This document shows, one piece after another, positions 1,199 through 31,063 of a stretch of DNA of 31,318 nucleotides. This DNA comes from a virus (taxonomy: Duplodnaviria; Caudoviricetes). The notes beneath the pieces are model-generated. The model did no database searches and had not been told where the DNA came from. It saw only the letters and a program-made list of their open reading frames with translations. The DNA is taken from positions 1 to 31,318 of IMG/VR virus record IMGVR_UViG_3300033481_000119; one strand, 5' to 3'. Numbering within the stretch: the first letter of the stretch is position 1; each line of letters opens with the position of its first letter. Made by a program: the position numbers and the translations under genes.

Positions 1199-1855
1199 TT
1201 AATAAGTATATCTCAGTTTAAGAATTGTTTTTTCATCGTCAAAATTATGATCAACAGCAACACCTAAATATTTGCCATCATTCGATATCTTTCTTGATAC
1301 CGAATATCCAAATTCGGCAGGTGCCCAATTATCCACGTTTTTAGGTGCATAATCAACCTGCCGCAATATTTTTTTATATGCATGTATGTTATATTGATTG
1401 AGTACAATCGGATCAGTTTCTTTGTACTGCGATAACTCTATTTTCTGGTCTGAATTTTTAGGATTAGTCACAATTGCAAAATCGGCACTAGACTTTTCAC
1501 GTTCTTTTTCAACAATAATAGGTACTTGTTGTACAACAGTATGAATTACAGTATCCGGTGCTTTATTTTTGAGTGCGCGAATTTGTTGCGCGGTTTCGTC
1601 TAACTGACTTTGTAGCATATCAACATGTGCATTATTAGCAGCCTCTTTTACACCTTGAGATGTTTCGGCTTGTTGCTGGCTTTCATATGTTTCTAGCTGC
1701 GGTCTAGCAAAAAAATATTCACAAATTAGGTATCCGCCTAAAAAAAGCAATGACATAGTCAAAATAGCTATAATTACTTTTATGCGTTTTGGTAACATTT
1801 GTACTTTTTGTGCTGCTTCCTCAACGGATTTTTCAACTAATTCTTTTTCATCCAT
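1199..1855 (-). CDS. Membrane-anchored lysis-cassette protein, candidate spanin-like
   Basis: 218 aa, SD GGAGG. One N-terminal TM segment (VIIAILTMSLLFLGGYLIC), a Q/E-rich coiled coil, then amphipathic beta-strands ending in LKLRYTY. Lies directly after holin and endolysin. Confidence 0.6.
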   Translation of the reverse strand: MDEKELVEKSVEEAAQKVQMLPKRIKVIIAILTMSLLFLGGYLICEYFFARPQLETYESQQQAETSQGVKEAANNAHVDMLQSQLDETAQQIRALKNKAPDTVIHTVVQQVPIIVEKEREKSSADFAIVTNPKNSDQKIELSQYKETDPIVLNQYNIHAYKKILRQVDYAPKNVDNWAPAEFGYSVSRKISNDGKYLGVAVDHNFDDEKTILKLRYTY

Positions 1856-1879
1856 TTCAAAAAACCTCCTAAAATTAAT

Positions 1880-1923
1880 AAAGCGCTTAAAATCGATATC
1901 TTAGGATTCAATTTAAGCGCTTT
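1880..1923 (-). terminator. Hairpin/terminator between the endolysin and the 218-aa gene
   Basis: Perfect 12-bp inverted repeat AAAGCGCTTAAA (1880-1891) / TTTAAGCGCTTT (1912-1923). Confidence 0.55.
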
Positions 1924-1944
1924 CATTTATATGGACTTAACTTT

Positions 1945-2460
1945 TTACGCGAAATAATTAGTTACCCCTCTTGCAATTGCATGTGCAAAATCAACTTGGC
2001 GATTTGCAAGTAACTGTTCATCAGCAACATTACTGACAAATGCTGTTTCGACCAAAACTGCTAGGCAATCAGTATGTTTAATCACGTACAATTCAGTGCT
2101 GTATTTTACACCACGATCAACAGTACCAAGTGAATTTACAATCTGATTTTGAATGCCAAAAGCTATCGATTCACCTGCACCGCCAGAATTATAACAAAAT
2201 GTTTCTGTTCCTTGTGCCTCAGTGCTAGAAGCCGCATTGCAATGAATTGATACAAATAGATCTGCACAAAATGTATTGCTTTCATTAATGATATCTGCAA
2301 GTTCATTTTCCTGCACGAATAAAACTTCGTAACCAACTGCTTGTAAATCCCTACATACGATTTCAGCAATATTTTTTACTACATCTGCCTCCTGCAAAAA
2401 TGTTCCTACAGCACCACTATCAAGTCCGGGGCAATGCCCTGCGTTGATACAAACTTTCAT
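1945..2460 (-). CDS. Endolysin, N-acetylmuramoyl-L-alanine amidase (Amidase_3), catalytic domain only
   Basis: Zn-amidase motifs INAGH..D.GAVG, E-AD, FVSIHCNA, AVLVETAFVSN. 171 aa with no cell-wall-binding domain. Confidence 0.93.
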   Translation of the reverse strand: MKVCINAGHCPGLDSGAVGTFLQEADVVKNIAEIVCRDLQAVGYEVLFVQENELADIINESNTFCADLFVSIHCNAASSTEAQGTETFCYNSGGAGESIAFGIQNQIVNSLGTVDRGVKYSTELYVIKHTDCLAVLVETAFVSNVADEQLLANRQVDFAHAIARGVTNYFA

Positions 2461-2483
2461 TTTTCATCGACCTCTTTCATAAA

Positions 2484-2912
2484 CTAAAGTTTTTTTTCTT
2501 CTTTTATTTGAGCCAATTTATCTCTAACGAAATATGGGAATAAATTACCCCAGCCACCTTTATCGGCATTTTCGACAATACTAACCAATTCAAGTACACC
2601 ATAAGCACATATCGCCATGTAACGCAAGGTATTTGTGTTAAACAATAAATCAGCACCATAGAAAAAAGCAACGACTATGAAAATCGTTGCCTTTTTTCCT
2701 ATACCTTTAAATCCTAGCTGACTTGATAATTGTTTTGTTTGCCAAGCAGCGTACATACCTGTCATATAATCTATAACTACAAATAACATAAGCATTTTTA
2801 CTTGAACATCAAAACCGCCTACCGCCTTTGCAAATATTGTGCCTAAAAGCCCTGCAACCGCTAATATTTTAAGTTCAGTTAATGTATACATATTCATAAA
2901 AAAATCTAACAT
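2484..2912 (-). CDS. Phage holin (Phage_holin_4 type, toxin secretion/phage lysis family)
   Basis: GGFD..LMLFVVIDYMTG..AA...LSS..GFKGI.KK..IF..V..D and E.VSI.EN motifs, several TM segments, directly upstream of the amidase. Confidence 0.9.
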   Translation of the reverse strand: MLDFFMNMYTLTELKILAVAGLLGTIFAKAVGGFDVQVKMLMLFVVIDYMTGMYAAWQTKQLSSQLGFKGIGKKATIFIVVAFFYGADLLFNTNTLRYMAICAYGVLELVSIVENADKGGWGNLFPYFVRDKLAQIKEEKKL

Positions 2913-2972
2913 TTCATCATCCTTTCAGCACAAAAAATAGAACCTACATTGGCTCTTTATAAGATTATTATT

Positions 2973-5060
2973 TTAAATAATAAGCGCATATCCTGTAAAT
3001 GTGCTTGGTGTCATATTTACTGTAATTGATTTAAGATATGCATTTAGCGTATAACCATTAACGATATGTGTATAGGCAACCGATGCTGTTCCATTACTAG
3101 ACTTGTAATAGTTAATAGAATATATAATCTCTCCGTCTGAAACAGTATATGTAGTATATGGACTAGTCCACCACCTAGTGGATAGTTGAACAGTATAACC
3201 ATCTGGATACAAACTACTATATATAGTTCTATAATTTAAGTAATTTCCATCCCCACTAGTACTAGATTTTGCATCTGAGATATACGTCACATGCTGCCCA
3301 GAAAATGATTCCCAAGTTCCATCAAGTGTTGGGGTAAGTGAATAAGATTTTAAGGTTGTAACAGTATTTAAATCATTATTTAAACAAATTGCAAAGTCAA
3401 TTGACATTGGAGCAAAGGTATCAGACCATTGAGCTATCGTAATAGCATTTATTGTTGCTACAGCCATACCATATGTCTTGATATTAGAAATATCAACAGT
3501 TGTCCAAACATTACTAATAAAAGACTTCCACGTCACTCCTTTATCAAAACTAACCAATATATTTAAATTATTACCAACCACCGATACTCCTTGAACGCCC
3601 GTATAATGCAATAATGATATTCTGGTGTAATCAGTGGTTTTAACCACACCACTAACTGCGTTGTTCGGGGGCATCCAACAAGGATAAGTCGATGGAATTA
3701 ATATTTTAGGCGGTGCATAAATATCACCTGTGAATCCTCCATCATAATTCCTAAATAGTCTTTGAGCGGTTGTTCTTTTTATTTCTTCTTTTACTATTTC
3801 AAAATCCAAATATTCTTCTTCACCATTTGGATAAAACAGTTTTATTCTTGCTTTATTAATGCCTTTTGTTAATTGACTAGGATTGATTGTAAACTCAACA
3901 TTATTCATTGCTATGTCACTAGAAGTCTGTTGAACAATTACAGAATCATTCAGCGTTAAGTTATATTTACCAGAGATAGCTTCTGTTGACCGGCTAGTAA
4001 GTGAGACTGTTACGGGCATGCTCTTGTGTTGATGCGTCGGAGTTACGGTTAGAATGTATCTACTATTGGCATTAGAGCTGGAGACAATACAATCATCCAG
4101 CCCAACTCCTATAACATTTCTTACTTCTCTACCAATGCTTTCATCATCAATGGCAAATCCTAAATCGTTTCTGGTACGGACACCTGCAAGGTTATCATCT
4201 AATGTTACACATAAATCACTTCTTATTCGCAAACCTGCAACTTCATCATCCAATGGCATGCCAAAATCTTCTCTTCTTCTATTACCAAAATTTAAATTAC
4301 AAATATCTTCACCATAAGTAGAACTTGCACGTAGACCAAAAGAATAATCATCTAAATTAGACCCATTCTTTCCGTTTTGCCTAGCATTAAGCAATTGCAA
4401 TGTTTCGTCATCATTGGATTGATAACTTCTTGTCGTCCTGCCCCCGGATTTAATTGTATCAATTTCCACATCTAAACCGTTGTAATTAAGCAGGGAGATC
4501 GGCCCATTGCTTAAATCTTCAATATCTAATCCACTGTTTCCAGTTATAGAAATATTTCCAACGTCTTCACTATCTGCAATATCCACACCGAAAAAGGTCT
4601 GAACATCAGAATTTAGACAGAAAGTGAATTCTACATTAGAAATAGAAAAATTATCTACACCAGTACTAGCACCAGTATAAAGATTTATACCATAATATTT
4701 AGTTCCTTTACCAATATCGTGCAATGTAACTGTTGCTGAACCGCTTGACAAAGTTGTTAAGTACACCCAACTGGTGCCATTATAGGCTTGGACTCCGACA
4801 GATATTCCCGAGTAATAAGTGATGGTGATGTCATAAACTAAAAATGGAGCACCAAATAACACATACCAAGATGTACCTCTATTATAAAAACTATCATACC
4901 ATGCAGTTGAGTCACTTCCATCCATGGCATAATAAGGAGAAGCCATTTGACGTGTGCTACCATTAACAGTTAATGAATAGGCAACCCCATCAATTGTATA
5001 AGACGATGGGGTTGTATTACTTGTCATTAACTTGGCAAGTTTGTAAAAACGTGTTGCCAT
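2973..5060 (-). CDS. Putative receptor-binding/fibre-associated protein, 695 aa
   Basis: N-terminal discoidin/F5-8-like domain (MTSNTTPS..Y.AMDGSDSTAW), acidic 17-aa repeats, an Ig-like segment, and an LVSFDKGVTWKSF..W...GM..ATINAIT..QW domain also seen in the 905-aa protein. Last gene before lysis. Confidence 0.55.
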   Translation of the reverse strand: MATRFYKLAKLMTSNTTPSSYTIDGVAYSLTVNGSTRQMASPYYAMDGSDSTAWYDSFYNRGTSWYVLFGAPFLVYDITITYYSGISVGVQAYNGTSWVYLTTLSSGSATVTLHDIGKGTKYYGINLYTGASTGVDNFSISNVEFTFCLNSDVQTFFGVDIADSEDVGNISITGNSGLDIEDLSNGPISLLNYNGLDVEIDTIKSGGRTTRSYQSNDDETLQLLNARQNGKNGSNLDDYSFGLRASSTYGEDICNLNFGNRRREDFGMPLDDEVAGLRIRSDLCVTLDDNLAGVRTRNDLGFAIDDESIGREVRNVIGVGLDDCIVSSSNANSRYILTVTPTHQHKSMPVTVSLTSRSTEAISGKYNLTLNDSVIVQQTSSDIAMNNVEFTINPSQLTKGINKARIKLFYPNGEEEYLDFEIVKEEIKRTTAQRLFRNYDGGFTGDIYAPPKILIPSTYPCWMPPNNAVSGVVKTTDYTRISLLHYTGVQGVSVVGNNLNILVSFDKGVTWKSFISNVWTTVDISNIKTYGMAVATINAITIAQWSDTFAPMSIDFAICLNNDLNTVTTLKSYSLTPTLDGTWESFSGQHVTYISDAKSSTSGDGNYLNYRTIYSSLYPDGYTVQLSTRWWTSPYTTYTVSDGEIIYSINYYKSSNGTASVAYTHIVNGYTLNAYLKSITVNMTPSTFTGYALII
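4090..4360 (-). repeat. Imperfect 17-aa tandem repeats within the 695-aa protein
   Basis: DFGMPLDDEVAGLRIRS / DLCVTLDDNLAGVRTRN / DLGFAIDDESIGREVRN / VIGVGLDD, with two weaker units upstream. Confidence 0.7.
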
Positions 5061-5074
5061 AAGGATTTACCTCC

Positions 5075-5944
5075 TTATGCTATTCTTAGTAAAATAGCCC
5101 TGCTTGGAAATGATGTTATATTAACAGACGCTACGACTGCCACATAATATGTGTATGTTCCAATTGTAACTGTATCACCAGTGATAAAATTTGTACCAGA
5201 ATAATATGCGAATTTTAATCCGTCTAATTTACCTCTAAAACTTTCGGTAGCACTTCCATAATAGGCAGTAGCTCCGAAACTTTTAGCAGCAACATTTGGG
5301 TCGCCTGGTGGAATTAATGCATACAACATAATTGAATAAGGGGCTGTAACTGATCCCATAGTATCAGAAGTATTGCAAATCATTGCTGAAGCTGCTGTTG
5401 TTCCATTGTTTGAAGTTGCCACTAGCATACCTCTGGAAGCACTGTCTGACACGAATAATGTATCTGGCTCACCAATGTAAATTACAGTTGGTGCTAAAGC
5501 CGTCGCCGATGGATATTCAATTTCTAAAATCAATTTACTAGCATCTGCATACACATGATACGTGCAAATGGTATCTTTGCCTAATGTAGTGGTTACTGCT
5601 GCTACAGGAGCAATATATAAATTAGTCCACGCTAATGCTGTCCTCCCAAATGTCCCTGCTACACCTGCCGCTCCAGGCACGTAAGTGTCTTGCAATCTAT
5701 AGGACATGCAACAATAATCAGTTGTAACTATAGAGTTAACTGCGGTAGAGCTAATGTCTCTAAGGTTTAATAATAAATTCTTATCTCCAGTGTTTCCTGT
5801 TGATTTCATTACTACAAAATCAGAACTAGCTAAAGACGCCACATTACTCCACCCTGCAGAAGTTAATTTGTCGATAATAAGTTGATATATTGCTGATTTT
5901 GCACAAGTTCCCGAAGTAAAAATATAATCTGTTGGTATAGCCAT
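5075..5944 (-). CDS. Virion structural protein, 289 aa, probable distant paralogue of the tip proteins at 13344-17009
   Basis: N-terminal helix-W-strand pattern and C-terminal RGKLDGL...GDTVTIG..YYV, matching VGEFDGM...KDTLIHEG..YKV of 16068-17009. Confidence 0.6.
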   Translation of the reverse strand: MAIPTDYIFTSGTCAKSAIYQLIIDKLTSAGWSNVASLASSDFVVMKSTGNTGDKNLLLNLRDISSTAVNSIVTTDYCCMSYRLQDTYVPGAAGVAGTFGRTALAWTNLYIAPVAAVTTTLGKDTICTYHVYADASKLILEIEYPSATALAPTVIYIGEPDTLFVSDSASRGMLVATSNNGTTAASAMICNTSDTMGSVTAPYSIMLYALIPPGDPNVAAKSFGATAYYGSATESFRGKLDGLKFAYYSGTNFITGDTVTIGTYTYYVAVVASVNITSFPSRAILLRIA

Positions 5945-5967: not shown

Positions 5968-7113
5968 TTAATTATTTTTTATAGTTACGTGGAAAACAAC
6001 ACCAGTGTCGTCTCCAGCGGTTGAAGCTCTGATAACATCGCCAGATGATATGGACGTATTGGTAGCCAAGCCACTATATTCTTGATATGAAGTATTTGTT
6101 GGTAATGTCAAGTCACTCCCCCCAACTACTGACCATACATCTGCCTTTGCAACATAATTTGCTTTTGATTGCATTTCAACATTAAACAATAAAGAGGCGG
6201 TTTGTGGCTCAGAACAAATGACCGCGATTTTTTGTATTGTGCCATTCCACGGATACATGATTTCGGTTTCCCCACCCACAAATACTACTGTTCTTATGTC
6301 TTCATATACTGGCATCCCTTTATAATCTAATCTGCCATTATGATCTGACAAGCCAGCTACTACATTAGGAACCCCTTGGATGTTATCCCATTTTAGCACC
6401 ACATCCATGCTTTCCTTTTCAGCTCTTTTAATCCAAGTAGTATTGGTAGCATCATAAATATATTCCGCCCATCCAGCCGTAACAGTAGTATCTCCAGTAG
6501 CATCTACAACGTGAACTTGTAGACCGTCATATAGCTTGGTTACATTGATGACGTTGCGGTCAGCTATATTACTAACTACCCGCATTTCTTTAACATTTGG
6601 AGGTAATTGAGACATTGGTACATAACCACTTGAATTTAACTCAGCATAGCCACCAGCCTGCCCCTTGTTTAATGTATTTTCTTTTAAATCTAACGCTTCT
6701 TGTAGTCCAGTAATTGCACCAATCACGTGCTGGTTTGCCAAATTGCGACCTTGTAAATCCTGATGTTTTATGAACGTTGCCCCACCGAATAATTTTAAAA
6801 CCCACGTTGCCGTACCATCTGTGACTATATCACCTTCACCATATCCTTGTGGTTCAGTAGTCCCAGATGTTCCACCAACACTACACATATAAAAGCCCCA
6901 ACTCGGACAAGTCAGGTTTCTGACTATATCTTGTTTTTTATAGGCTGTGTTAGGTTTCCACATATCAAAATGCGATTTGCTGTCTGCATGTGCTTTTGGT
7001 AAAACAACATCATCAATGGTTTGTATCGAATCGTTAATTTTCTCCCGCATCACATAATCGGAGCCTAAAATCAGCGGTAATCCTAGATTTTTTGTTACAC
7101 TTTCCTCCGCCAT
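5968..7113 (-). CDS. Tail fibre/adaptor A, ~381 aa
   Basis: SD GGAGG before ATG 7113. CBM5/12-like WKPNTAYKKQDIV..DGTATW, fibre motifs QHVIGAITGLQEALD and GYAELNSSGYVPMSQLP. Directly after the central tip protein. Confidence 0.75.
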   Translation of the reverse strand: MAEESVTKNLGLPLILGSDYVMREKINDSIQTIDDVVLPKAHADSKSHFDMWKPNTAYKKQDIVRNLTCPSWGFYMCSVGGTSGTTEPQGYGEGDIVTDGTATWVLKLFGGATFIKHQDLQGRNLANQHVIGAITGLQEALDLKENTLNKGQAGGYAELNSSGYVPMSQLPPNVKEMRVVSNIADRNVINVTKLYDGLQVHVVDATGDTTVTAGWAEYIYDATNTTWIKRAEKESMDVVLKWDNIQGVPNVVAGLSDHNGRLDYKGMPVYEDIRTVVFVGGETEIMYPWNGTIQKIAVICSEPQTASLLFNVEMQSKANYVAKADVWSVVGGSDLTLPTNTSYQEYSGLATNTSISSGDVIRASTAGDDTGVVFHVTIKNN

Positions 7114-7126
7114 TATCTTTCCTCCC
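6685..7126. repeat. Copy 1 of a ~440-bp diverged direct repeat (fibre N-terminus plus RBS)
   Basis: Colinear with 30635-31076 at a constant offset of 23950 bp, e.g. TCCTAGATTTTT and CATTATCTTTCCTCCC occur in both. Confidence 0.9.
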
Positions 7127-7127
7127 A

Positions 7128-10100
7128 TCATATTAATTCAATGAACTGCGTACCATCCCATTGTAAATATTTCTCTGCTTTCATATTAGGTTCTTTAAAT
7201 TTCGTTCTTAAAACAAAACCAGTTTCCAGACTAACAAAATCATGCTCAGTATTATTTTTAATTAACATGGCTCGTCCGTCCGGAATAATATAACTATCGT
7301 CATAGCATAAAACTGTATTAGTAGCCGCCTGCAATACTTTTTGCCCCAAAAGTATAACTGGAAGGTTAACATATTTAATATACTGCTCATCTGATGCCGT
7401 GTTTTCAGGCACAACTACCTCTGCAGTATCACCCCAATTGGAGATACATTTCAATGCGCTCTGCTCATCCACAACACCGTTAACCATCGTTGGAATAATC
7501 CAGCTAAAGGTCCGTTTCTGTGCCTGGTAAGATAGCAAATCATTTAATTTTGCATAAATTTCAATTGTTGTTTCTCCGGTAATTCCTGCAAGACTCCCAC
7601 CATCTATAGCCCTTTGCGCCCATGAATACTCAAATATTGATGCTGTATCTGGCAGTGTATATTCTTTAATCTGTTTATCATCTGCATAAACGTTTACGAT
7701 ATATTCTAATCCAGCTGGTGGCGTAAAAGCGGTACTGCTCCAGTATTCTTTTTCATCATCCTGACTCACACAGCCAAAACTAAACTGCTTATTTCGCGCA
7801 AACCATTTAATACTTAAGTCGCCAGCAAATTTACTTGTATTAACCTGCTCATAGAGCAAATGCGCATTCATACGAATTTTTCCTGGCGGCGAAGGTCGTT
7901 CCGCGCGCCTAACTGTAGTAAGACGTCGCACCTTAGCATTGTCAAAGGCTTCTTTTTCATTTACTGTACTGGTTGTAATATTATAAAATTCATCCACTGT
8001 TTTTCCTTCATGACAAACTGGTCCACCAGTCGTTACGTTTGCATAATGACCAGATTCTATAAAGTAAATGATTTCTCCATTTCCATGTTTTTCGGGCACA
8101 GTATCGTATACCCCGCGAATGATTCCCTGTACACGCCAGTTACCATTTGGCATCTGGGTAATATTGCTCCATGCCATAAGCTCATTTCCCATCATTAGGA
8201 GTTTACCGCCACGCCTTGCCGATACGATATCGGTTGCGGAATCACTAAGTGCACTAAATCTTAAATCTTCAATGCCACCTAAATCAATGATTTCAATCCC
8301 CGTCAAGTCCTCAGCATTGCTAAATGCATCATAATCGTAAATGAGCCGACCAGTTGCTGTCCATTTACTCATGGTATTTGTCGTTTCAAAATTCTCGCTT
8401 GCTCGCTTGCGCCATATCATCCAAGCTTGTGTTTTCAGATCTGGTTTCACAGCAAATGCAAACACATACGTATCTTTAATCTGCATAATTTCATACGGTA
8501 ATTCAAAATAATTAAAAGTTTGCACGCCTGTTGGATAAAGAGGTTCAGGTTTCCACTCTGTAGAATCCGAAAAATTAAAATCCGTTTTTGCCAGACTAAA
8601 GATATCTTCCATGAGTTCAATTTTAATCTTGCCGTCCGTAAAATTTCCTAAATTTACATCAGTAACTCTAAATAGCATATTTTTAACACCATATGCCGGA
8701 AAATTCAAACAGCAAATATCCCCAAGTCGCAGCATATACAAGTTTCGATTTCCTTCAACAGAAGCTGTAGCTAGCGGATATCCTTGCTGCATTAATTCCC
8801 TTTTTGCGGCCCATAAAGCATTTTCGGCTTTTGTAAAATACGGGTAAGAATAAGTTTTTGTCGTTAAAATTCCATTATTGATTTCAACATTTGCCTGATC
8901 TATGTCAGATAAAGACCCAGTTTCGTATAACGCCGATCTATCGGTATAAGTTGCCGATATCTCTGATACAGTCTCGCGCCAATCAAGCCGCGAAAAGGAA
9001 ATGGTTGAAATATTACTTTCATCTAATAAGAAAATCTCCTTTAAATTCTGTTGATCCTCGGGCAATACATCGTCTGTCTTATATTGATTAAGATCGTTTC
9101 TAATTAATCGATAGGTAAGTTTTCCATCTTTAGGCTCAATAAATTTCACTGCATTGATATGCTCACAAATCGAATCAATGATCTGCCCTGCTGTAACTTT
9201 ACTCGTTAGCAGTAATGTAATTCCTATTTTTTCCTCTTGCAATGTTTTGCCGATTTCTTTCAACGCATCAAGGTTTAAAATCTCTTCCGACTCAGCAATC
9301 CCCCAATTTTTATTGACATGCATTTCATAAAAAGCCTCAGCTGGATTTACATCTTCATCAATACTCCCTAATCCAAGATGATCCGGTATGTTTTCAATCT
9401 CATACCACATCGTTGGCACCGTAGCCTGTTTACCGACGTACGCAGTAGGAATAACAACTGAGATAAAGGGACGATACGCTGGCGTAAACCCACGAAGCTC
9501 TTGCTGAATACTATCTGCCTGCATTTGATTTACCATCCAGGCATCCGGCATTTGATTAGCTCCGCCAAAATATACATGAATTTCACCAACGAATCCTCCA
9601 TTTTCATCTGGACCTCCAAATAATTGATCGTTGTTTATTGGTATAACAAGAGCACTACCATTTTGTTCTTTTGCTCCTACACTGCCTTCCCATATAAGCT
9701 CTTCATTCATATAAATTTTCTTTAATTTCACATTTTCGCCAGACCAACAAATAAGTTGCTGATAGCCAAGATAATACTTAAAGCCCTTTTGCAATGTCGT
9801 CTTTAGATTTCGACCATTGATAAGCCATGACAAGAGCCACATAAATAAAGCATTAATCAAAGGTCCTACCGCCATATCTTTACCAGCTATTTTTACCGTT
9901 ACTGGGGCAGGTCCATCTTTTGTTTTAGCCGTTCCTTCTCCTCCACCAGTCGTTGTTGCAGGGGAAGCTATATATTGTGCAATTAAAGAAAAAACCATTG
10001 GCCAAGCCGAAAAATTTGCGTGAGCTGCATAGGTTTCTGTATAAGCTTCTGCTCTAAAATCTCCATAATAAATAGTCAATGGCGATTTAATTAGGCTTGT

Positions 10101-12384: not shown

Positions 12385-12389
12385 AATTT

Positions 12390-18313: not shown

Positions 18314-18463
18314 TTACCGTGTTTTTTTCATTAGCATGCTTTGTACCTTCGCATTCTCAACCATGTTCCTTTTATAGCCAACATCCACCTGACTCTTTAC
18401 CCAAGGTTCCAGCGATTTAATAAATCCATCACCGATAAAGCGATTGGTAAGCACAATTTTAGG
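18314..18463 (-). pseudogene. Orphan copy of the last 50 codons of the tape measure gene
   Basis: PKIVLTNRFIGDGFIKSLEPWVKSQVDVGYKRNMVENAKVQSMLMKKTR* versus the TMP end PKIDVTNRFVGDGFIKSIEPW...MKKTW*. No ATG/GTG/TTG before an upstream in-frame TAG. Confidence 0.9.
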
Positions 18464-23420: not shown

Positions 23421-23681
23421 TCACCTCCTTGCAATGCGATCATAGTACTTATCTAGTTCTTTAGACTCAGACCAAACACTCATGCGAACATCATTCATAT
23501 AATTGATTCTGGCAAATATTGCACGGGAATAAAATTCACTGATCTGATCAATCGTCATCCCCAAAATTTCATCTAATGAAAATCCCTTATTTTTTAATAC
23601 GTCAGCAATATCGAGCCAATCTACTTCTTCTCCGGCTGTTTTGCCTTGATTTTGTTGACAATCGGCGCTAAGCGCTTCGTA
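23421..23681 (-). CDS. Tail assembly chaperone frameshift extension (gpT-like), reached by -1 slip
   Basis: The -1 frame is open for 86 codons (YEALSADC...DWLDIADVLKNKGFSLDEILGMTIDQISEFY...RIARR*). Its end AGGAGGTGA is the TMP SD. Not in the ORF track. Confidence 0.8.
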   Translation of the reverse strand, partial: YEALSADCQQNQGKTAGEEVDWLDIADVLKNKGFSLDEILGMTIDQISEFYSRAIFARINYMNDVRMSVWSESKELDKYYDRIARR

Positions 23682-24073
23682 AAAAAATCATAATGATTTT
23701 CAAGAATTGCAAAAATTAAGAGTATCGCCTCTTCAATATCAATCCCCACTTTTTCATCTAAAAACCATTCGCGCGGTTTTCTGGTATAAGCTGCCAAGAT
23801 TGTCGTAAGAGATTCTATATTTTTTTCAATCGCTTGATTTATTAAATCCCACCCCTCTTGATTAATAGATATAGCTTTTCCTTTTTCAAAAACAATGCCA
23901 TTGCCAGGTTCAAGTAATGCAAATACATCACTCATAATCGTTTGCAAAGCCAAAGTAAATTTAGGTAAATCAACTAATTTAAAAGCTTTTATTTCTAACG
24001 TTTCCCCTTTTATTATGATTTCAGCACCATTTTGCGTTAAAATTTCTAAGCTGTTTTTTTTGGGCATTTTCAT
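23621..24073 (-). CDS. Tail assembly chaperone (gpG-like), 150 aa
   Basis: Between tube and TMP genes, with a YDFFT slippery site near the C-terminus. Confidence 0.8.
   Translation of the reverse strand: MKMPKKNSLEILTQNGAEIIIKGETLEIKAFKLVDLPKFTLALQTIMSDVFALLEPGNGIVFEKGKAISINQEGWDLINQAIEKNIESLTTILAAYTRKPREWFLDEKVGIDIEEAILLIFAILENHYDFFTKRLAPIVNKIKAKQPEKK
23681..23687 (-). promoter_or_regulatory. -1 ribosomal frameshift heptamer T TTT TTT
   Basis: GAT TTT TTT ACG in the chaperone frame; a slip gives TAC GAA GCG... open to 23421. Confidence 0.8.
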
Positions 24074-24199: not shown

Positions 24200-25369
24200 T
24201 TATGCTACATTGATCAATTTAAAGAACGGTTCGTCCGGATGATTTTCACGATCAGAAAGCACCGTCATTTCAAGGGTAAAAGTGCCCCATTCCTCTGTGA
24301 TTAAACCAATATCACCAGTAGGAACGATAGATACATGCCAAACTTCTAGATTATAAGGACGACCATGAGAAGGATCGCCAAGGAATAATAAATCCCCCTC
24401 GATTTTTTTCGCTGTTCCACCCATAATTTTAGGATATTTTGCTTCAGGTACTTTATAGGATACACGTACCTTTTGGCCATCTGGAATATTTGAGGTATCT
24501 GGAATTGTAATAATCCCGCCTCTAAGCTGTGTTTTATCTAGAATGTAATCCACACCTGGAACATATTTGTTATTTGCTGGTGTAACTTTGATTTCATAAA
24601 TTTCACCTGCTACAAGGTCTTGTCCACTAGTGCCTGCAGCAAAAACTACTGTCACACCTTCAGCAAGTGTTTGAGCAGTACCGGTAATCGTAATCGGCGC
24701 ACTTTCCATGCTACTGCCTTTTCTATAAGTAAATGTTGCATCTGTAATCGTTCCTGCTGTAGAATTCGCTTTAGCAACCGTAATAAAATATGAAGTTGAG
24801 TCTGTTCCAGAATAGAGACCTCCAGAGGTTACAATAGCGGTACCTGACGTATTGCCCACCTGCGCAAAAGATTTTGCTGCGCCAACTTTGGCAGGAGAGC
24901 CAGTCAATGGTTGGATCACAACATCCGTAATATTTTTATACGGAACCGAAATAGGTGAGCCTAGATTAACCGTATATAGTTCATCTGTAACCAATTGCTC
25001 TTCTTGTGTTTCTACGCCTGCCTCGCCATATAAAGCCAATGCAAGATTATAAGGGTTATATTCGTCTAAAGTTAAGGTTAATTTATAAGTCATAGATTTC
25101 ACTGCTTCTGCATAGACTTCTTTTGCTGCGTTCATCGAACTCATTTTTTGAACTTTTTCAATTGTTGGGGTTAGATTTAAAGTTTCAACATTCCCCATGT
25201 GTCTGCGTACAAGCGGATTTCCCAAAGAGTCCCATAATCTAAAAAACACCTTACCAGCACCAATCATTAAATCCTTTGGTGATGGTGCAGAGGCAAATAA
25301 TTGCATATCAAAATTAAAACTTTCCGTGTTATTTGTAATATTTCTTTCTAAAATTTCTTTCTTATTCAT
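24200..25369 (-). CDS. Major tail tube protein (non-contractile, D3112/chi-like) with an inserted beta-domain, 389 aa
   Basis: IGAGKVFF, HMGNVETLNLTPTIEKV, LTLDEYNPYNLALALYG, GVDYILD...G.ITI and P.GDIGLITEEWGTFTLEMTVL.D motifs. Upstream of chaperone and TMP, with no sheath gene. Confidence 0.85.
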   Translation of the reverse strand: MNKKEILERNITNNTESFNFDMQLFASAPSPKDLMIGAGKVFFRLWDSLGNPLVRRHMGNVETLNLTPTIEKVQKMSSMNAAKEVYAEAVKSMTYKLTLTLDEYNPYNLALALYGEAGVETQEEQLVTDELYTVNLGSPISVPYKNITDVVIQPLTGSPAKVGAAKSFAQVGNTSGTAIVTSGGLYSGTDSTSYFITVAKANSTAGTITDATFTYRKGSSMESAPITITGTAQTLAEGVTVVFAAGTSGQDLVAGEIYEIKVTPANNKYVPGVDYILDKTQLRGGIITIPDTSNIPDGQKVRVSYKVPEAKYPKIMGGTAKKIEGDLLFLGDPSHGRPYNLEVWHVSIVPTGDIGLITEEWGTFTLEMTVLSDRENHPDEPFFKLINVA

Positions 25370-25595: not shown

Positions 25596-25976
25596 TCACA
25601 TTTCAGCTAAAGCCTTATTTACAGAATCACTTAATGCTGTCCAACCTAAATCACTAAATTTCCCTTGCAATATTTCAAGTTTCTCTTTACCAGATAAAAA
25701 TTTGTCAATTTTCATTTTTTCTTCTGCAAATTTAATTCCTTCTCGCGTCATCTGAACAAACTGTGTGTTTTCTGCATTTGGATAAGGATCATTTCTCATA
25801 AAATGAAGTTTCGTCCCCGAGATTAGACTTTCGCTCTGTAATTTATTTAAAGCAACCCGAAAGGACTTCTCATCCATATCTAATGTAATATTAGATATTA
25901 AATTCATATCGGGGATATCTTTTTGATATTCGATATAAATTGCTAGCAATAGCTTTTGTTTAGCATCTAAATTCAA
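25596..25976 (-). CDS. YjcQ-like winged-helix hypothetical protein, 126 aa
   Basis: TTG start with AAGGAGG. KLLLAIY.EYQKDIPDM..I....LDM....F..AL.KLQ.E.LISG....MTREGI.F pattern. Confidence 0.6.
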   Translation of the reverse strand: MNLDAKQKLLLAIYIEYQKDIPDMNLISNITLDMDEKSFRVALNKLQSESLISGTKLHFMRNDPYPNAENTQFVQMTREGIKFAEEKMKIDKFLSGKEKLEILQGKFSDLGWTALSDSVNKALAEM

Positions 25977-26091: not shown

Positions 26092-26126
26092 AAACTAAAA
26101 CCACCTACAGCTCTTGTAAGTGGTTT
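26092..26126 (-). terminator. Promoter-proximal hairpin/terminator
   Basis: Minus strand AAACCACTTACA-AGAGC-TGTAGGTGGTTT followed by TAGTTTTT. Confidence 0.6.
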
Positions 26127-26149
26127 ATCTATAAACTTTTGATGATACT

Positions 26150-26200
26150 ATCATAACACCTCGATAACTAAAAAAACGGAAGTAAACCGAACGAAAAAAC
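26150..26200 (-). promoter_or_regulatory. Activator-dependent phage late-promoter-like element
   Basis: Extended -10 TGtTATGAT (26150-26158) with no consensus -35. Instead there are 10-bp-spaced direct repeats AAACGGAA (26174-81) / AAACCGAA (26184-91) on the plus strand. Confidence 0.5.
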
Positions 26201-26331
26201 CTTAAAGGTGCTGTTTTTTTACTGCTAAATAACCTTAATGCTACTCTTTATTTCGATAGCAACTGAAATTTTATAGGGTATTTTACAGTTACTCCACGCA
26301 TGATTTATAAAAACAGCTTCTGTAATGACTT

Positions 26332-29049
26332 TTAAAACTCAATTACACCTTCGCTATAATTTATTTTATAATCTCCGTTGGTTAATAATTTAACACGCAA
26401 AACGTTATTGCGCGGATAGCCATATGTATAATCTGCGCCTGGCATTGCCATATCCCAGCTACCTTTCATATCAACTTGCATAATAAGCTCATCTATTTCA
26501 CACTGATCACTTATACTTTCAATCATCGGCAAATAGGCAAATCCAATTCCTGTTTCTTCCGTCGTTAATGCATCCCACTCACTTCTAGTAATGGACGAGA
26601 TCGTTTGTGTATCAATCCCATCGCTTTTTACCGCAGCAATATTGGCTGAGTCAATATTTTGCCATATCCCACCTTTCAATGTTTTATAATGCGCCAAATC
26701 TGTGGTAACGAGCACTTTACATTTTCCGTTGCCAGAGAATTTTCCCTTTATAGATACCTGATCAATTCCCTCAAAACTATCAATAGCGATCAATCCTCTA
26801 GGAAAGAGTATTTTATCAAATGGTACAGCTGAAATTTTTAATGTTGCTCGTTCCTCTTTGCCAATTGTATAGGCAAGAATTTTAAATTTTTGCAATGGTT
26901 TAAGGATTGATGCCTTTGCAATACTTTTTCCACCAGATTTAAATAGATTTTGTTTTTCCACATCTGTAAGTGTAGTCCAGTCGTCGCTCACCTTGCTCAA
27001 AACATCCTCTACAACTTTGTAACAACTATGATCTTCTTTTAAGTATAAAAAGCGGCTTTCTCTTTTTACGGCTAAAACTGGTCTAAAACCGACATATTCA
27101 TTAGCTGAACTACTGTCATATTTACTTTGACTCATTGTAATTACATTTTTGTCCTGAGAACCTCGTGCAATTCTTAAGCTTGGTGATGCTGCCGTTCCTA
27201 TGTCATCAACAGTTGATAAGGTTGCCAAGGTCCAGGATTTCGTGGATAGACAATTCCAAACATCATTATCAGAGGGTATGATGGCACCACCTAAGTTATT
27301 ATAAGAAATAACTTCATCCCATTCACCGTGATTTTCTGCATCCACATGCCGGTCAACAATGGTATGAGGAATTCGCATTGTCATACCATCGATATCATCA
27401 ATATTGATTTCTAATCCTGAACTTGTACATAGCCCCACATTATTTAACGTTTCCCATGCTATCTTTCCTTGAATATTACGATCTGCAACGAGTTTTAAAT
27501 CTCCTGCGGGCGTATAGCCAACGCAGATAAAATAAAAAGTGCCATCCGGCACTTCTGGTGCTAAATCTGAAAAATTCGCTTTTACAGCTTTTCCAAGGTT
27601 AGCAAATTTACCAAATATATTGGCGGTTGAAACATATTCACATGAAATTGCTTGTCCTAGTTGAATTTTTTTAATGTCCTTCACTAATTCTAGTGGACAA
27701 TCAGGTGTCCCTCTTGTAAATATATCGGAAGTTGGATTATATATTAAAACCGGTCTAAAGCCGACATATTGATTCGCTGAACTACTGTCATATTTATTTT
27801 GGCTCATTGTAACTGGATTTATATTTTTATCCTGAGACCCTCGTGCAATTCTTAAGCTTGGCGCTGCCGCTGTTCCTATATCATCCACAGTTGATAGTGT
27901 CGCCAAGGTCCAAGATTTCGTGGATAGGCAATTCCAAACGTCATTATCCGACGATGTGACTACACCACCTAAATCACAGAAAGAAATGAATTCATCCCAT
28001 TCACCATGATTTTCTGCATCCACATGTCGATCAGCAATTGTATGAGGAATTCGCATCATCATACCGTCCATAGCATCGATATTGATTTTTACTCCTCTAC
28101 TTGTGCAAAGACCCGCATTATTTAACGTTTCCCACGCTATTTTTCCTTGAATATTACGATCAGCAATAAGCTTTAAATTTCCTGCTGGCGTATACCCGAC
28201 GCAGATAAAATAAAAAGTTCCATCTGGCATTTCTGGTGCTAAATCTGAAAGATTCGATTTTATAGCTTTTCCAAGGTTAGCAAATGTACCAAATGTATTG
28301 GCGTTTGAAACATACTCACATGAAATAGCCTGTCCTGGCTTAATTTTTTTGATATCATTCACTAATTCTAACGGACAGTCAGGTGTTCCTCTCGTAAATA
28401 CATCAGGCGTTGGGTCATAGATTAAAACCAGTCTGAACCCACAAATTGCAGAAGCTGTACTTGATACGATATTCGCGATGGTTGAAGGCGCCGTTCCACC
28501 ACGTTGTATTCTTTGCGCCGCATTCGCTGCAATTCCAGCATCATCTGCAAATGCAGGTGTATTGAGCGTCCAAGACGGAACACTTGTATGCCAAAACTCA
28601 GAATCACCTTTACTTATTTTTCCTCCTAAATCGTAATTTAAGATAATTGAGTCATACTCACCATTATAAGTACCATCATTTTGTAGAGATGATCCGATTA
28701 ACCTCATAGAATAATTTGTTGAATTACCATCAATTGATACTACACTAGGAAGCGTTGCACATAAATCTGCTGTATTTAAAGCTTCCCAGGCTATATTCGC
28801 TTGGATATTTCTATCGGCGACTAATTTTATTTTCCCATCCGGTGTATATCCTACACATACGAAGTAAAATGCTCCATCTACAGTTATTGGATTTGTAGTT
28901 ACATCAATCAATACCTTAGTTGCTTTTCCTAAATTAACAAAGGTTCCGAAAGCTCCTGATGTTGCGGCAGTATATTCACATGATATTGCTTGATTAGGCT
29001 GTATATCATTAATATCTGTTACAATTTCTAAAGCCGTGATTGTAGCCAT
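26332..29049 (-). CDS. Putative receptor-binding protein with three tandem ~225-aa domains, 905 aa
   Basis: Three copies of ISCEY...F.NLGKA...FYF.CVGYTP.G..KL.ADRNIQ..IAWE.LN...GE[WY]D...SWTL...RG...GFR.VL, then a C-terminal domain shared with the 695-aa protein. Confidence 0.65.
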   Translation of the reverse strand: MATITALEIVTDINDIQPNQAISCEYTAATSGAFGTFVNLGKATKVLIDVTTNPITVDGAFYFVCVGYTPDGKIKLVADRNIQANIAWEALNTADLCATLPSVVSIDGNSTNYSMRLIGSSLQNDGTYNGEYDSIILNYDLGGKISKGDSEFWHTSVPSWTLNTPAFADDAGIAANAAQRIQRGGTAPSTIANIVSSTASAICGFRLVLIYDPTPDVFTRGTPDCPLELVNDIKKIKPGQAISCEYVSNANTFGTFANLGKAIKSNLSDLAPEMPDGTFYFICVGYTPAGNLKLIADRNIQGKIAWETLNNAGLCTSRGVKINIDAMDGMMMRIPHTIADRHVDAENHGEWDEFISFCDLGGVVTSSDNDVWNCLSTKSWTLATLSTVDDIGTAAAPSLRIARGSQDKNINPVTMSQNKYDSSSANQYVGFRPVLIYNPTSDIFTRGTPDCPLELVKDIKKIQLGQAISCEYVSTANIFGKFANLGKAVKANFSDLAPEVPDGTFYFICVGYTPAGDLKLVADRNIQGKIAWETLNNVGLCTSSGLEINIDDIDGMTMRIPHTIVDRHVDAENHGEWDEVISYNNLGGAIIPSDNDVWNCLSTKSWTLATLSTVDDIGTAASPSLRIARGSQDKNVITMSQSKYDSSSANEYVGFRPVLAVKRESRFLYLKEDHSCYKVVEDVLSKVSDDWTTLTDVEKQNLFKSGGKSIAKASILKPLQKFKILAYTIGKEERATLKISAVPFDKILFPRGLIAIDSFEGIDQVSIKGKFSGNGKCKVLVTTDLAHYKTLKGGIWQNIDSANIAAVKSDGIDTQTISSITRSEWDALTTEETGIGFAYLPMIESISDQCEIDELIMQVDMKGSWDMAMPGADYTYGYPRNNVLRVKLLTNGDYKINYSEGVIEF
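27073..29049 (-). repeat. Intragenic tandem domain repeats (27073-27744, 27745-28422, diverged 28423-29049)
   Basis: GFR.VL anchors at 27073, 27745 and 28423 (spacings 672 and 678 bp). The two C-terminal units are highly similar at DNA level. Confidence 0.9.
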
Positions 29050-29069
29050 ATTTTTTCACCTCGCTTATA

Positions 29070-29768
29070 TTAAGCCCAAATGCTTGTTGATTTTGGATTA
29101 TCTATATATTCTAATATTGGTCTATAACATGTATATGCATTTCGTGCTGATCCTGATGGATGATCTGTGGTTTCTATGAAATTACCGTATATCGGAATTC
29201 CATATAAATTTAATTGACTACTAACCATATGAATATAACAATGATAACTACCATTTAAAGTTGTGCCATTCATATTTAAAGATGTACACATTGTTGAACC
29301 AATTCGATCTTGATTGATTTCAACATAAGCAATTTCTCCAACTGAAGATGTTACTGCGACATTAGTTCCATGCCATACTTTTGCGTCAGCTTTTGTTATA
29401 TTCCCGTTTAAGTCAGAATTAGAAATATATTTTAAGAATTCATCTCTAGATAAAGATCTTATTAATCCTAAATTAGTTTTTATTCCAGTTAAGTATCCTT
29501 TAGAATTAAGTGATTGCGCAGAAATAGCACTCTGTACTAGCCTATCAGCAACAAGTAATCCCTTATCAGTTTTAATAAAATAAAAATATCCATTAGCGGT
29601 AGATGTCGGCGTAGTAGGTAACTCGTTTAACGTACTTTTTACTTCTAAATTTTGAAAATCTCCTGCTACATTAGCTGTCGGCGCTACATACTCACATTGA
29701 ATATAATCACCAATTAGCATATCACTTAATTTTGTACACAGCCTGCCATTACTCTCTGGTGCTCCCAT
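29070..29768 (-). CDS. Single-domain paralogue of the 905-aa repeat, 232 aa
   Basis: IQCEYVA...F.NL...GYFYFIK..GLLVADRLVQSAIS...LN...YRPILEY. Confidence 0.7.
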   Translation of the reverse strand: MGAPESNGRLCTKLSDMLIGDYIQCEYVAPTANVAGDFQNLEVKSTLNELPTTPTSTANGYFYFIKTDKGLLVADRLVQSAISAQSLNSKGYLTGIKTNLGLIRSLSRDEFLKYISNSDLNGNITKADAKVWHGTNVAVTSSVGEIAYVEINQDRIGSTMCTSLNMNGTTLNGSYHCYIHMVSSQLNLYGIPIYGNFIETTDHPSGSARNAYTCYRPILEYIDNPKSTSIWA

Positions 29769-31063
29769 TATAAAAATCCTCCTTGTATGTTTTCAATTGT
29801 TTTATAACCAGAAAAATCAATAAAGTCACTTTCACATATCGTATTTCCATCCATATTTTCTGAATTATTTACTTTAATTTTATATTCCGTATTTTTTCTC
29901 ATCACTCCATCAAAAATAAATTGATCAGATAGCTCTGCACTTTGCACATCGACAATAAAATCCTCTGCATCCGCATTATCGAAGTTATACATTGTAAAAA
30001 GTTGATCTTGTTCACCGCCTTGCGAGTTAAATTTCAAAATTTCTACTGGCGGAAGCCTGAATTTATTGGTATAACTTATGGGAATATCTAAAGAAACTGG
30101 TGCGATAACATTTAATTTTGTAAGCTGTTTTAAATCAGCACTTTCACTACTTAACAGTTCCCAATAAATTTGTTTAAATTTATCATCAGAAATATGGCTT
30201 ATCCTACAACGATAAAGTTTTCCATTATGGACTACCAGCATGGTCGATTCATATTCGGTATTTGCAGTCCAATTGGGTGCCCCACCTAAAATTGATTTTC
30301 CATTAAAAGTTGGCTGATTATTTTTTTCACCATATTTATCTAATGAATTTTTATTATCGTGAATATGAGCTCGCTTATTTAGACTATCCAAATCGATAGC
30401 TTCTGTAATTGTTATTTTATCAATCTTCGCTTTATCCAAGACAGAATAATCATTCGTAGAAAGCCCTCTACCCTCAATCTTATCCACTTTGCCGGATAGA
30501 GTCGCCATGATTGCAGCTATAGCACTATCATCATCTGCTAAAGCATCGGCTATTTCTTTAAGTGTATCTAGTGTTTCTGGTGCATCCGCGATTAGATCAT
30601 CAATGGTCTTTTTTAGATTTTCTTTTGTTACTGTTAAATCTAATGCATCTTGTAGCCCTGTAATTGCTTTAATTTCATGTTGGTTTTCTAAATTTCTACC
30701 TATTAAATCACTATGTTTGATCGACGTTGATCCGCCAAATAACTTTAATGTCCAAGTGACTGTACCATCTATAATACTATCGCCCTCACCATAGCCTTGA
30801 GGTTCTACAATTGCTGATATACCAGCAATTGTACACATGTAAAAACCCCAACTCGGACAGGTTGGGGTTCTAACTACGTCTTGTTTTTTATAAGCGGTAT
30901 TCGGTTGCCACATATCAAAGTGAGCTTTGCTGTCCGCATGGCTCTGGGGTAAAACAACATTATCAATGGTTTTTATTGAGTCATTGATCTTATCCTTCAT
31001 CACATAATCAGAACCTAAAATTAGTGGTATTCCTAGATTTTTCGTTGTACTTTCCTCTGACAT
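29768..31063 (-). CDS. Tail fibre/adaptor B, ~431 aa
   Basis: True start MSEESTTK at 31063 (GGAGG, and homology to 7113). Two CBM5/12-like motifs (WQPNTAYKKQDVV, WTANTEY...VVHNGKLYRC), fibre motifs APETLDTLKEIADAL and KVDKIEGRGLSTNDY. Confidence 0.75.
   Translation of the reverse strand: MSEESTTKNLGIPLILGSDYVMKDKINDSIKTIDNVVLPQSHADSKAHFDMWQPNTAYKKQDVVRTPTCPSWGFYMCTIAGISAIVEPQGYGEGDSIIDGTVTWTLKLFGGSTSIKHSDLIGRNLENQHEIKAITGLQDALDLTVTKENLKKTIDDLIADAPETLDTLKEIADALADDDSAIAAIMATLSGKVDKIEGRGLSTNDYSVLDKAKIDKITITEAIDLDSLNKRAHIHDNKNSLDKYGEKNNQPTFNGKSILGGAPNWTANTEYESTMLVVHNGKLYRCRISHISDDKFKQIYWELLSSESADLKQLTKLNVIAPVSLDIPISYTNKFRLPPVEILKFNSQGGEQDQLFTMYNFDNADAEDFIVDVQSAELSDQFIFDGVMRKNTEYKIKVNNSENMDGNTICESDFIDFSGYKTIENIQGGFL

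What the first reader, a model, noticed from the sequence alone, without database searches (positions are those of the whole stretch)
1199..31063. Headless non-contractile tail cluster: candidate F-type tailocin in a probably diderm Firmicute
Seen: apparently intact tube, chaperone, TMP, tip, fibre and lysis genes, with no terminase, portal, capsid, neck or sheath gene. The tube gene lies under 800 bp from a late-promoter-like element, where the packaging and head block normally sits. Known: F-type pyocins and Listeria monocins are tail-plus-lysis clusters derived from siphophages. Inference: a domesticated tailocin built on a D3112/B3/Nazgul-style tip (DUF2163 + Phage-tail_3) in a Negativicutes-like host; I know of no described example. 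Against: no recognisable tail terminator gene or activator gene, and IS relics on both sides.
Basis: partly seen in the sequence, partly recalled or inferred. Interest (0 to 1): 0.85.

Follow-up and report, generated by a model that had tools for sequence, protein, structure and literature searches.

The report
Headless Chi-type tail weapon in Negativicutes
A set of phage tail and cell-lysis genes with no head or DNA-packaging genes is kept intact in several strains of an uncultured double-membrane Firmicute, and likely encodes a domesticated tail that would kill rival bacteria, of a tail type and in a host group where our literature searches found no such weapon.

Summary
The window is a whole contig with tube, chaperones, tape measure, tip, two fibre cassettes and lysis genes, and no head, portal, terminase, neck, sheath or terminator gene. 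Genome G001 (Negativicutes, LpxC present) carries the same locus at 89-95% DNA identity on an 835-kb contig: housekeeping genes, XRE repressor, late-activator-like gene, fibres, tail, lysis; no integrase, replication or head gene, and 11 head or terminator queries find nothing in that genome. Ten core tail genes have dN/dS 0.12 at dS 0.18, with no stop in 24 gene pairs. A third strain bridges the same headless junctions. Related prophages put a head block and a terminator-fold gene directly before the same tube. The tail is of Chi/YSD1/JBD30 type, not lambda or TP901-1. Against: a genome with 98% identical flanks has an empty site, an IS fragment abuts one fibre cassette, and nothing shows expression, particles or killing. 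Best reading: an F-type tailocin of a new tail lineage (0.7). Three more headless clusters of this tail family in two other genomes arose separately. The scan's notes held no look-alike locus.

The parts
1..108 (+). 3' fragment of a transposase at the contig end (IS3-type label recalled from motif); outside the element
   Evidence: six-frame translation
343..394 (-). terminator-like hairpin closing the element; likeness to G001 ends here
   Evidence: sequence
401..1063 (-). 220-aa protein, phrog_10059/11984 (unknown); paralogues lie behind lysis genes of prophage G008 and elsewhere in G001
1199..1855 (-). 218-aa membrane-anchored protein, weak Rz-like spanin match (E 5.7e-5)
1945..2460 (-). 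endolysin, Amidase_3
   Evidence: E 1.2e-34
2484..2912 (-). holin, Phage_holin_4_1
   Evidence: E 1.4e-26
2973..5060 (-). fibre cassette A, 695-aa likely receptor-binding protein; allele swapped against G001 (39% identity)
5075..5944 (-). fibre cassette A, 289-aa virion structural protein (phrog_9130)
5968..7131 (-). fibre cassette A, 387-aa fibre; first ~150 aa 75% identical to the 431-aa fibre of cassette B (likely shared baseplate anchor)
7128..10259 (-). 1043-aa tip/baseplate hub, Phage-tail_3 + Rcc01698_C; relatives Chi 8vjh_A and JBD30 8rk3_o
10270..11175 (-). 301-aa BR0599/DUF2163-type baseplate protein with 7 cysteines
11176..12396 (-). distal tail protein; matches JBD30 8rk3_U residues 186-560 and Chi 8vjh_B
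12390..13331 (-). 313-aa conserved tail-region protein, no family; possibly the N-terminal part of a split distal tail protein (inferred from position)
13344..14420 (-). 358-aa phrog_687 structural protein, likely side-fibre subunit; no PDB sequence hit
14433..16055 (-). 540-aa conserved tail-region protein, no family or PDB hit
16068..17009 (-). 313-aa phrog_687 protein, homologue of JBD30 8rk3_c (likely pilus-binding fibre gp47 or gp48)
   Evidence: (E 2.7e-17)
17148..17366 (-). 72-aa ORF, 90% identical in G001, unknown
17762..18253 (-). secreted 163-aa beta protein, copy 2 (98% identical in G001); candidate exclusion/immunity protein
18314..18463 (-). duplicated 3' end of the tape measure gene in front of copy 2, also in G001
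18526..19017 (-). secreted 163-aa protein, copy 1, allele swapped against G001 (42% identity)
19078..23415 (-). 1445-aa tape measure protein with two hydrophobic segments (aa 505, 579), an NlpC/P60 domain (aa 791-901) and one divergent stretch (aa ~1138-1186)
23421..23630 (-). -1-frame extension of the tail chaperone (lambda gpGT-type, label recalled), open in window and G001
23621..24073 (-). tail assembly chaperone (phrog_1442)
24200..25369 (-). 389-aa tail tube protein of YSD1/Chi type with inserted domain
25596..25976 (-). 126-aa YjcQ-like ORF at the place where relatives have head, neck and terminator genes
   Evidence: (below cut-off)
26098..26186 (-). late-promoter-like element followed by a terminator-like hairpin; second copy of the element that follows the activator gene in G001
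26332..29049 (-). fibre cassette B, 905-aa protein with three repeats
29070..29768 (-). fibre cassette B, 232-aa protein related to the repeats of the 905-aa protein; allele swapped against G001 (56%)
29768..31063 (-). fibre cassette B, 431-aa fibre with CBM_5_12 match
31181..31318 (+). transposase fragment at the contig end (IS110-type label recalled from motif), standing where G001 has the first promoter copy and the activator

Best explanation
The cluster is a headless siphophage tail-plus-lysis locus kept under purifying selection in a Negativicutes chromosome, and it likely encodes a domesticated F-type tailocin whose flexible Chi/JBD30-type tails would be released by lysis and kill competing bacteria. 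Shown: gene content, the headless junction in three strains, the chromosomal site with an XRE repressor and a late-activator-like gene in G001, two copies of a promoter-plus-hairpin element (one before fibre cassette B, one before the tail operon), and selection. Inferred steps: relief of the repressor (signal unknown; the 118-aa repressor shows only an HTH domain) would switch on the activator; it would drive both promoters; tubes of about 225 nm (JBD30 ratio), likely variable because uncapped, would assemble on the tape measure; side fibres would catch a surface filament and either fibre cassette would bind the cell surface; the tape measure would cut peptidoglycan with its NlpC/P60 domain and form a membrane pore; holin, amidase and the spanin-like protein would release the particles; the secreted 163-aa proteins might protect the producer's kin.
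For: Same locus in G001 at 89-95% DNA identity over its main blocks, running recA...pepA-PHP-ATPase | repressor | 109-aa ORF | activator-like gene | cassette B | tail | lysis, with no integrase-, replication- or head-sized gene among the ORFs between. 0 of 11 head or terminator queries hit G001; the positive-control prophages in G008 or G005 were found. dN/dS 0.122 (bootstrap 0.105-0.142) at dS 0.184 over 5252 codons of 10 core tail genes; 0 in-frame stops in 24 of 24 gene pairs against a rough neutral expectation of about 140 in the core genes. Cassette B and yjcQ, at the headless junction, are constrained too (0.18-0.24), and the junction spacer itself differs at 24 of 342 aligned bases. Run X3 has one contig bridging ATPase-repressor-activator (141 differences in 2283 bases) and one bridging 905-aa gene-yjcQ-tube (211 in about 3370); activator, yjcQ and 905-aa variants share a 16,517-base contig length in a further data set. 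Receptor-side genes are swapped while the core is fixed. No known phage is close: after the 97% cluster the next tube is 66% and the next hub 75% identical. 40 of 49 chosen tube loci have a capsid gene upstream and a terminator-fold gene before the tube. F7 pyocin without terminator keeps its killing activity (PMC12874032 section 4).
Against: No expression, particle or killing data. The locus is accessory: G005, 98% identical in both flanks, has 94 other bases in place of the 34.7-kb element. In the window a transposase fragment lies about 120 bases before cassette B, in place of the first promoter copy, so this strain may have lost or uncoupled that control. No tail terminator in the cluster or found in G001, whereas monocin and wild-type F7 pyocin are capped. 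dS is patchy (0.03-0.36 among the 20 closely aligned genes) and above the 0.03-0.08 between G001 and G005 housekeeping genes, so recombination shapes the locus and part of the selection signal could be imported. G001's completeness is not given, and the window's own genome is not available. Only one complete locus (G001) was read.
Confidence: 0.7

Rival explanations
1. Cryptic prophage remnant: one deletion removed integrase, replication and head genes; the rest looks conserved only because strains refresh it by recombination with related phages or each other, and it is now being lost.
Against: 24 of 24 gene pairs open, dN/dS 0.12, chaperone -1 frame conserved; junction-specific genes also constrained; no phage closer than 66% (tube) or 75% (hub) on record; the loss is clean, leaving repressor and activator next to a duplicated promoter element.
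Confidence: 0.12
2. The tails are made and selected, but not to kill: they serve adhesion or biofilm structure, or the locus is kept for programmed lysis and for exclusion of related phages by the secreted 163-aa proteins.
For: Intact lysis cassette; many fibre and carbohydrate-binding genes; the 163-aa family sits beside the tape measure gene in many prophages of this group, a place that suggests superinfection exclusion (Ltp-type precedent, PMC3952083, abstract start only); one holder run is a biofilm (laid).
Against: Lysis or exclusion alone would not keep tube, chaperone frameshift, tape measure and tip at dN/dS 0.02-0.26; the tape measure keeps an NlpC/P60 domain with the Cys and His motif residues and hydrophobic segments.
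Confidence: 0.11
3. A split particle: the tail module pairs with heads encoded elsewhere (a gene transfer agent in two loci, or a satellite or helper phage).
For: The tip is of the Phage-tail_3/BR0599/DUF2460 type shared with gene transfer agents; split encoding has precedent in the F7 pyocin terminator; capsid families not queried could be missed.
Against: 0 of 8 capsid, portal and terminase queries hit G001; neck, adaptor and terminator genes that join tail to head are absent from the locus and the terminator from G001.
Confidence: 0.07

Closest known systems
F-type pyocins of Pseudomonas aeruginosa (F7 pyocin structure)
   Same: Headless non-contractile tail genes with regulators and lysis genes; no terminator gene in the cluster; variable fibres (10.1101/2021.02.16.431561 passages; PMC12874032 sections 3-4).
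   Different: Pyocin tails are HK022/lambda-like; this tube matches YSD1, Chi and JBD30. F7 takes a terminator from a distant gene; none was found in G001. Host is a Firmicute; there is a second fibre cassette upstream of the tube.
Monocins of Listeria and efagins of Enterococcus faecalis
   Same: Firmicute F-type tail clusters laid out as regulators, tail, lysis (PMC11830787 and PMC12713668 passages).
   Different: Monocin is TP901-1-like, 11.6 kb, capped by its own terminator FtbF; efagin is 14.6 kb and species-wide. Both hosts have one membrane. This element is 34.7 kb, accessory, in a diderm host, with a tip of the kind seen in phages of Gram-negative bacteria.
Phages JBD30 (Casadabanvirus, D3112 group), Chi and YSD1
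   Same: Sequence matches for tube, distal tail, hub/tip and one side-fibre subunit; JBD30 binds type IV pili with gp47/gp48 fibres (PMC11445458 passages).
   Different: These are whole phages; here head, neck and packaging are gone, there are three genes at the side-fibre position, and the receptor is unknown.
Temperate siphophages of Negativicutes (Propionispira arboris L003, Sporomusa aerivorans L004/L005, Sporomusa sp. KB1 L006, G008, G043, G063 and others)
   Same: Same tail gene order from tube to fibre; tube 42-64% identical; same secreted protein beside the tape measure gene.
   Different: They carry terminase, portal, scaffold, capsid, neck, adaptor and terminator directly before the tube; the window and G001 have cassette B, a promoter copy and yjcQ there.
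Rhizoviticin of Allorhizobium vitis
   Same: F-type tailocin from a recently domesticated prophage, present in some strains (PMC10811719 abstract and passages).
   Different: It keeps an integrase remnant and replication genes; this element has neither. Sequences were not compared.

Membership tests
F-type tailocin (kind) | Non-contractile tail genes (tube, chaperones, tape measure, distal tail, hub, fibres), no sheath | tested here: met
F-type tailocin (kind) | No terminase, portal, capsid or neck gene in the locus | tested here: met
   window and G001; junction bridged in run X3
F-type tailocin (kind) | No matching head genes elsewhere in the genome | tested here: inconclusive
   0 of 8 head queries hit G001, but its completeness is not given, not all capsid families were queried, and the window's own genome is not held
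F-type tailocin (kind) | Chromosomal, without integrase or replication genes, with regulators and lysis cassette | tested here: met
   G001 ORF map from recA to the contig end, regulator families; no end repeat found
F-type tailocin (kind) | Genes intact and under purifying selection across strains | tested here: met
   dN/dS 0.12, 24 of 24 pairs open; one strain pair only, with further alleles at protein level
F-type tailocin (kind) | Inducible production of headless flexible particles | not testable with these tools
   needs culture, induction, EM and MS
F-type tailocin (kind) | Non-replicating killing of sensitive bacteria | not testable with these tools
   needs spot or depolarisation assays
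F-type pyocin family | HK022/lambda-type tube and tip | tested here: not met
   PDB sequence searches returned only YSD1, Chi and JBD30 chains; that pyocin chains are in that copy was assumed
Monocin family | TP901-1-type tip and in-cluster terminator cap FtbF | tested here: not met
   no terminator gene; tip is Chi/JBD30 type
Chi/JBD30-type siphophage tail | YSD1-type tube, DUF2460 distal tail, BR0599 protein, Phage-tail_3 hub, phrog_687 side fibres in this order | tested here: met
Gene transfer agent (RcGTA type) | Head and packaging genes in the cluster or genome | tested here: not met
   none in locus; none found in G001 with 8 queries
Intact temperate prophage | Integrase, replication, packaging and head modules | tested here: not met
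   against G008, G043, G063

The most novel reading that the evidence does not exclude
This is the first member of a tailocin family built on the Chi/JBD30 filament-grabbing tail, domesticated at least three times in diderm Firmicutes. In this lineage the tube is left uncapped, two fibre cassettes under separate copies of one late promoter give particles of two specificities, and a polymorphic stretch of the tape measure protein is paired with a cognate secreted immunity protein plus a spare copy, a toxin-immunity logic not seen in the tailocin papers read here.
Probability: 0.25. Interest if true: 0.82.

Novelty: new variant of a known kind. Interest (0 to 1): 0.62.

Why it matters
Few F-type tailocins are described (pyocins, monocins, rhizoviticin, efagins in the papers read). 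This one would add a new tail chassis, the Chi/JBD30 type with side fibres that in JBD30 catch pili, and a new host class, anaerobic Firmicutes with an outer membrane. Close intact prophage relatives and separate headless clusters at different stages of loss (G140 keeps scaffold and adaptor remnants, G055 keeps only the terminator, this lineage has lost that too) make the path from prophage to weapon directly comparable; the efagin preprint notes that such intermediates are scarce. It also offers a natural test of whether a terminator is needed, and of whether tailocins can carry dedicated immunity proteins.

Tried and rejected
No RNA holder was listed among 8 runs; this says nothing on expression. 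The complex predictor was not available, so binding of the 163-aa protein to the tape measure stretch is untested. The model of the 163-aa protein (pLDDT 89) gave no PDB match at E<=0.001; the wider fold search and the viral library were not obtained; Atlas neighbours were unnamed or IalB/DUF3122-like, leads only. The Atlas hit for the 905-aa protein (DUF6273, 0.84) is under the bar. Co-variation of tape measure and 163-aa alleles could not be extended: contigs of runs X1-X4 are too short. The 358-aa and 540-aa proteins and the terminator alignment had no PDB sequence hit; the terminator was identified by fold instead. yjcQ as a hidden terminator: no match to the 31-row terminator profile in the window; not folded. 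No attachment-site repeat at the element's ends. G001:C2 285-345 kb, flagged by short DNA matches, is a CRISPR-cas region, not a second phage; C2 1770-1779 kb holds orphan fibre and amidase genes without tube or head. Relatives in the families of G055 (1 of 3) and G140 (1 of 8) showed no further terminator hit, so those clusters could not be tested for selection. A pilus receptor in the producer: no PilT hit in G001, flagellin-family hits present; neither identifies the target. Annotated phage collection: 3 weak partial hits only. The scan's own notes had no look-alike by place or sequence.
Full report
What is in the window. The record is one linear contig of 31,318 bases, and no larger genome is held for it. 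Twenty-four genes lie on the minus strand. In reading order: a three-gene fibre cassette (431, 232, 905 aa), a promoter-like element, a YjcQ-like ORF, tube, chaperone, tape measure (TMP), two secreted 163-aa proteins, a 72-aa ORF, four tail-region genes, distal tail, BR0599 protein, tip, a second three-gene fibre cassette, holin, amidase, a weak Rz-like gene and a 220-aa gene. No protein was named terminase, portal, major capsid, connector or sheath. Both contig ends are transposase fragments (family labels recalled), so the window alone cannot exclude a head block beyond the right end.

A close relative settles the layout. A scan of genome contigs with a tube alignment found a 97% identical tube on an 835-kb contig titled uncultured Veillonellaceae (L002, genome G001). 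Its surroundings read recA, recX, rny, spoVS, pepA (these names recalled from the sequences), a PHP gene, an ATPase gene, then a 118-aa XRE repressor on the other strand, a 109-aa ORF, a 164-aa regulator (phrog_36 E 4e-15, phrog_248 activator, phrog_79 Q-like), and then the window's genes in the same order at 89-95% DNA identity over the main blocks. There is no integrase, replication or head gene between the ATPase and the tube. G001 has LpxC, and a search of its class returned the Sporomusa genomes G003 and G004, so the host is a diderm Negativicute; its order holds only two genomes. Eight capsid, portal and terminase queries and three terminator queries found nothing in G001, while prophages in G008 or G005 were found by nine of them, G055 and G140 clusters; rang only in control genomes. 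Completeness of G001 is not given.

More strains. Contigs of soil run X3 bridge ATPase-repressor-activator (141 differences in 2283 bases) and 905-aa gene-yjcQ-tube (211 differences), so a third strain has both junctions; X1 covers 30 of 30 bins, X2 28, X6 15, in short pieces. Protein clusters hold further alleles; activator, yjcQ and 905-aa variants share a contig length of 16,517 bases, which suggests one contig. Another activator allele, 97% identical, is on record on a 7,071-base contig; whether it belongs to the window's cell was not determined. Against universality: G005, 98% identical to G001 on both flanks, has 94 unrelated bases where G001 has the 34.7-kb element. The locus is accessory, as the efagin preprint reports for several tailocins (passages).

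Selection. Window against G001: 24 of 24 gene pairs are open. Ten core tail genes give dS 0.184, dN 0.022, ratio 0.122 (bootstrap 0.105-0.142); 20 closely aligned genes give 0.162; four swapped alleles (163-aa copy 1, the 232-, 289- and 695-aa cassette genes) were left out of the pooled figure and range 0.21-0.43 at near-saturated dS. A rough neutral expectation is about 140 stops in the core genes. The -1-frame chaperone extension is open in both strains. Both strains share the headless junction, whose spacer differs at 24 of 342 aligned bases, so the divergence most simply follows head loss. Caveats: one pair; dS is patchy and higher than between G001 and G005 housekeeping genes (0.03-0.08), which points to recombination; but no phage closer than 66% (tube, 33 hits) or 75% (hub, 50 hits) is on record.

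What was lost. Of 49 tube loci that I chose for enough likeness and flank (some duplicated between collections), 40 have a capsid gene upstream; 5 are headless on reading (window, G001, two in G055, one in G140); 4 are undecided (L149 and L153 too short, L172 and L200 too distant). The gene directly before the tube in the prophages folds like the terminators of T5, lambda and Chi (pLDDT 92; best E 4.9e-6). The window and G001 lack it. F-pyocin clusters lack one too (preprint passage); F7 pyocin borrows one from 290 kb away and, without it, still kills with longer, more variable tubes (PMC12874032 section 4). A tree of 33 tubes puts window+G001 in a well supported clade with head-bearing prophages and needs at least three separate head losses (G055b is a long branch).

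Tail type. The tube matches YSD1, Chi and JBD30 chains, the tip Chi and JBD30, the distal tail both, and the 313-aa protein a 318-aa JBD30 chain (E 2.7e-17), likely gp47 or gp48, which bind type IV pili (PMC11445458 abstract and passages). G001 itself has no PilT hit and has flagellin-family genes, and carries a FliB-like flagellin methylase inside its tail operon that the window lacks; the receptor is open.

Control and variation. The element 781 bases before the tube is a copy of the one directly behind the activator in G001 (score 135 against at most 64 in 1000 shuffles); each has a -10-like box and then a terminator-like hairpin. That it is an activator-dependent late promoter is inferred from position. 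The two fibre cassettes share a 150-aa N-terminal part at 75%, so either could dock on the baseplate (inferred). The only divergent TMP stretch between the strains (aa ~1138-1186) goes with a swapped first 163-aa gene, while a second copy behind a duplicated TMP 3' end is 98% identical; run X1 shows yet another tandem arrangement. An exclusion or immunity pairing is a lead from two strains only.

Mechanism and odds. Most likely an F-type tailocin (0.7): regulators, two late promoters, uncapped Chi/JBD30-type tails, TMP pore with an NlpC/P60 domain, release by lysis. Gene content, layout and selection are shown; induction, assembly, receptor and killing are inferred from pyocins, monocin and JBD30. 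Rivals: recombining remnant (0.12), non-killing use (0.11), tail for heads made elsewhere (0.07).

Novelty. Five paper searches listed no tailocin in Negativicutes or on a Chi/JBD30 tail; one search listed 30 of 3,061 papers, 12 of 166, 15 of 70, all of theirs. I saw passages of 10.64898/2026.08.24.746745, PMC10811719, PMC10538166, PMC11830787, PMC12713668, 10.64898/2026.03.17.712343 and 10.1101/606087. The library lacks most subscription journals, and supplements of the bioRxiv tailocin-prediction preprint, not seen, may list such loci. Verdict: a new variant of a known kind, interest 0.62.

Noticed in passing
G055:C281 around 23.5-46.5 kb (L118, L119; also L022) and G055:C223 1-14 kb (L120): Two further headless clusters of this tail family in one genome, each behind a similar regulator pair, keeping the terminator; one has lysis genes before the tube and a short 532-aa tape measure. 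No head gene hit in that genome with 6 queries.
   Followed up: partly
G140:C15 about 18.8-37.6 kb (L136, L137): Headless cluster with what look like scaffold and adaptor remnants, terminator, tube and a 482-aa tape measure, and no lysis genes beside it; looks like an earlier or different stage of loss.
   Followed up: partly
L002:18408-19619: FliB-like flagellin lysine methylase inserted in the tail operon of G001, absent from the window and from a run X3 contig spanning that place; could be self-protection against a flagellum-binding tail.
   Followed up: partly
window:17762-19017 and 18314-18463: Tandem cassette of tape measure 3' end plus secreted 163-aa gene; copy number or order differs in run X1. 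The family flanks tape measure genes in many Negativicutes prophages and has no PDB fold match.
   Followed up: partly
G001:C2:1770000-1779000 (L243, L244): Orphan fibre, amidase and 220-aa-type genes without tube or head, about 12 kb from an XRE gene 43% identical to the cluster's repressor; might supply extra fibres in trans.
   Followed up: partly
L229 (G005:C263): The empty site holds other cargo just downstream (three exported proteins and IS pieces), so the place behind the ATPase gene is a variable island.
   Followed up: no
L111 (G008:C7 2820-2831 kb): The intact prophage carries a second lysis cassette and extra fibre-like genes behind the first, so stacking of fibre cassettes predates domestication.
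   Followed up: no
window:17593-17757: Small 54-codon ORF, with a probable shorter membrane-peptide reading, between the 163-aa and 72-aa genes; no family hit.
   Followed up: no
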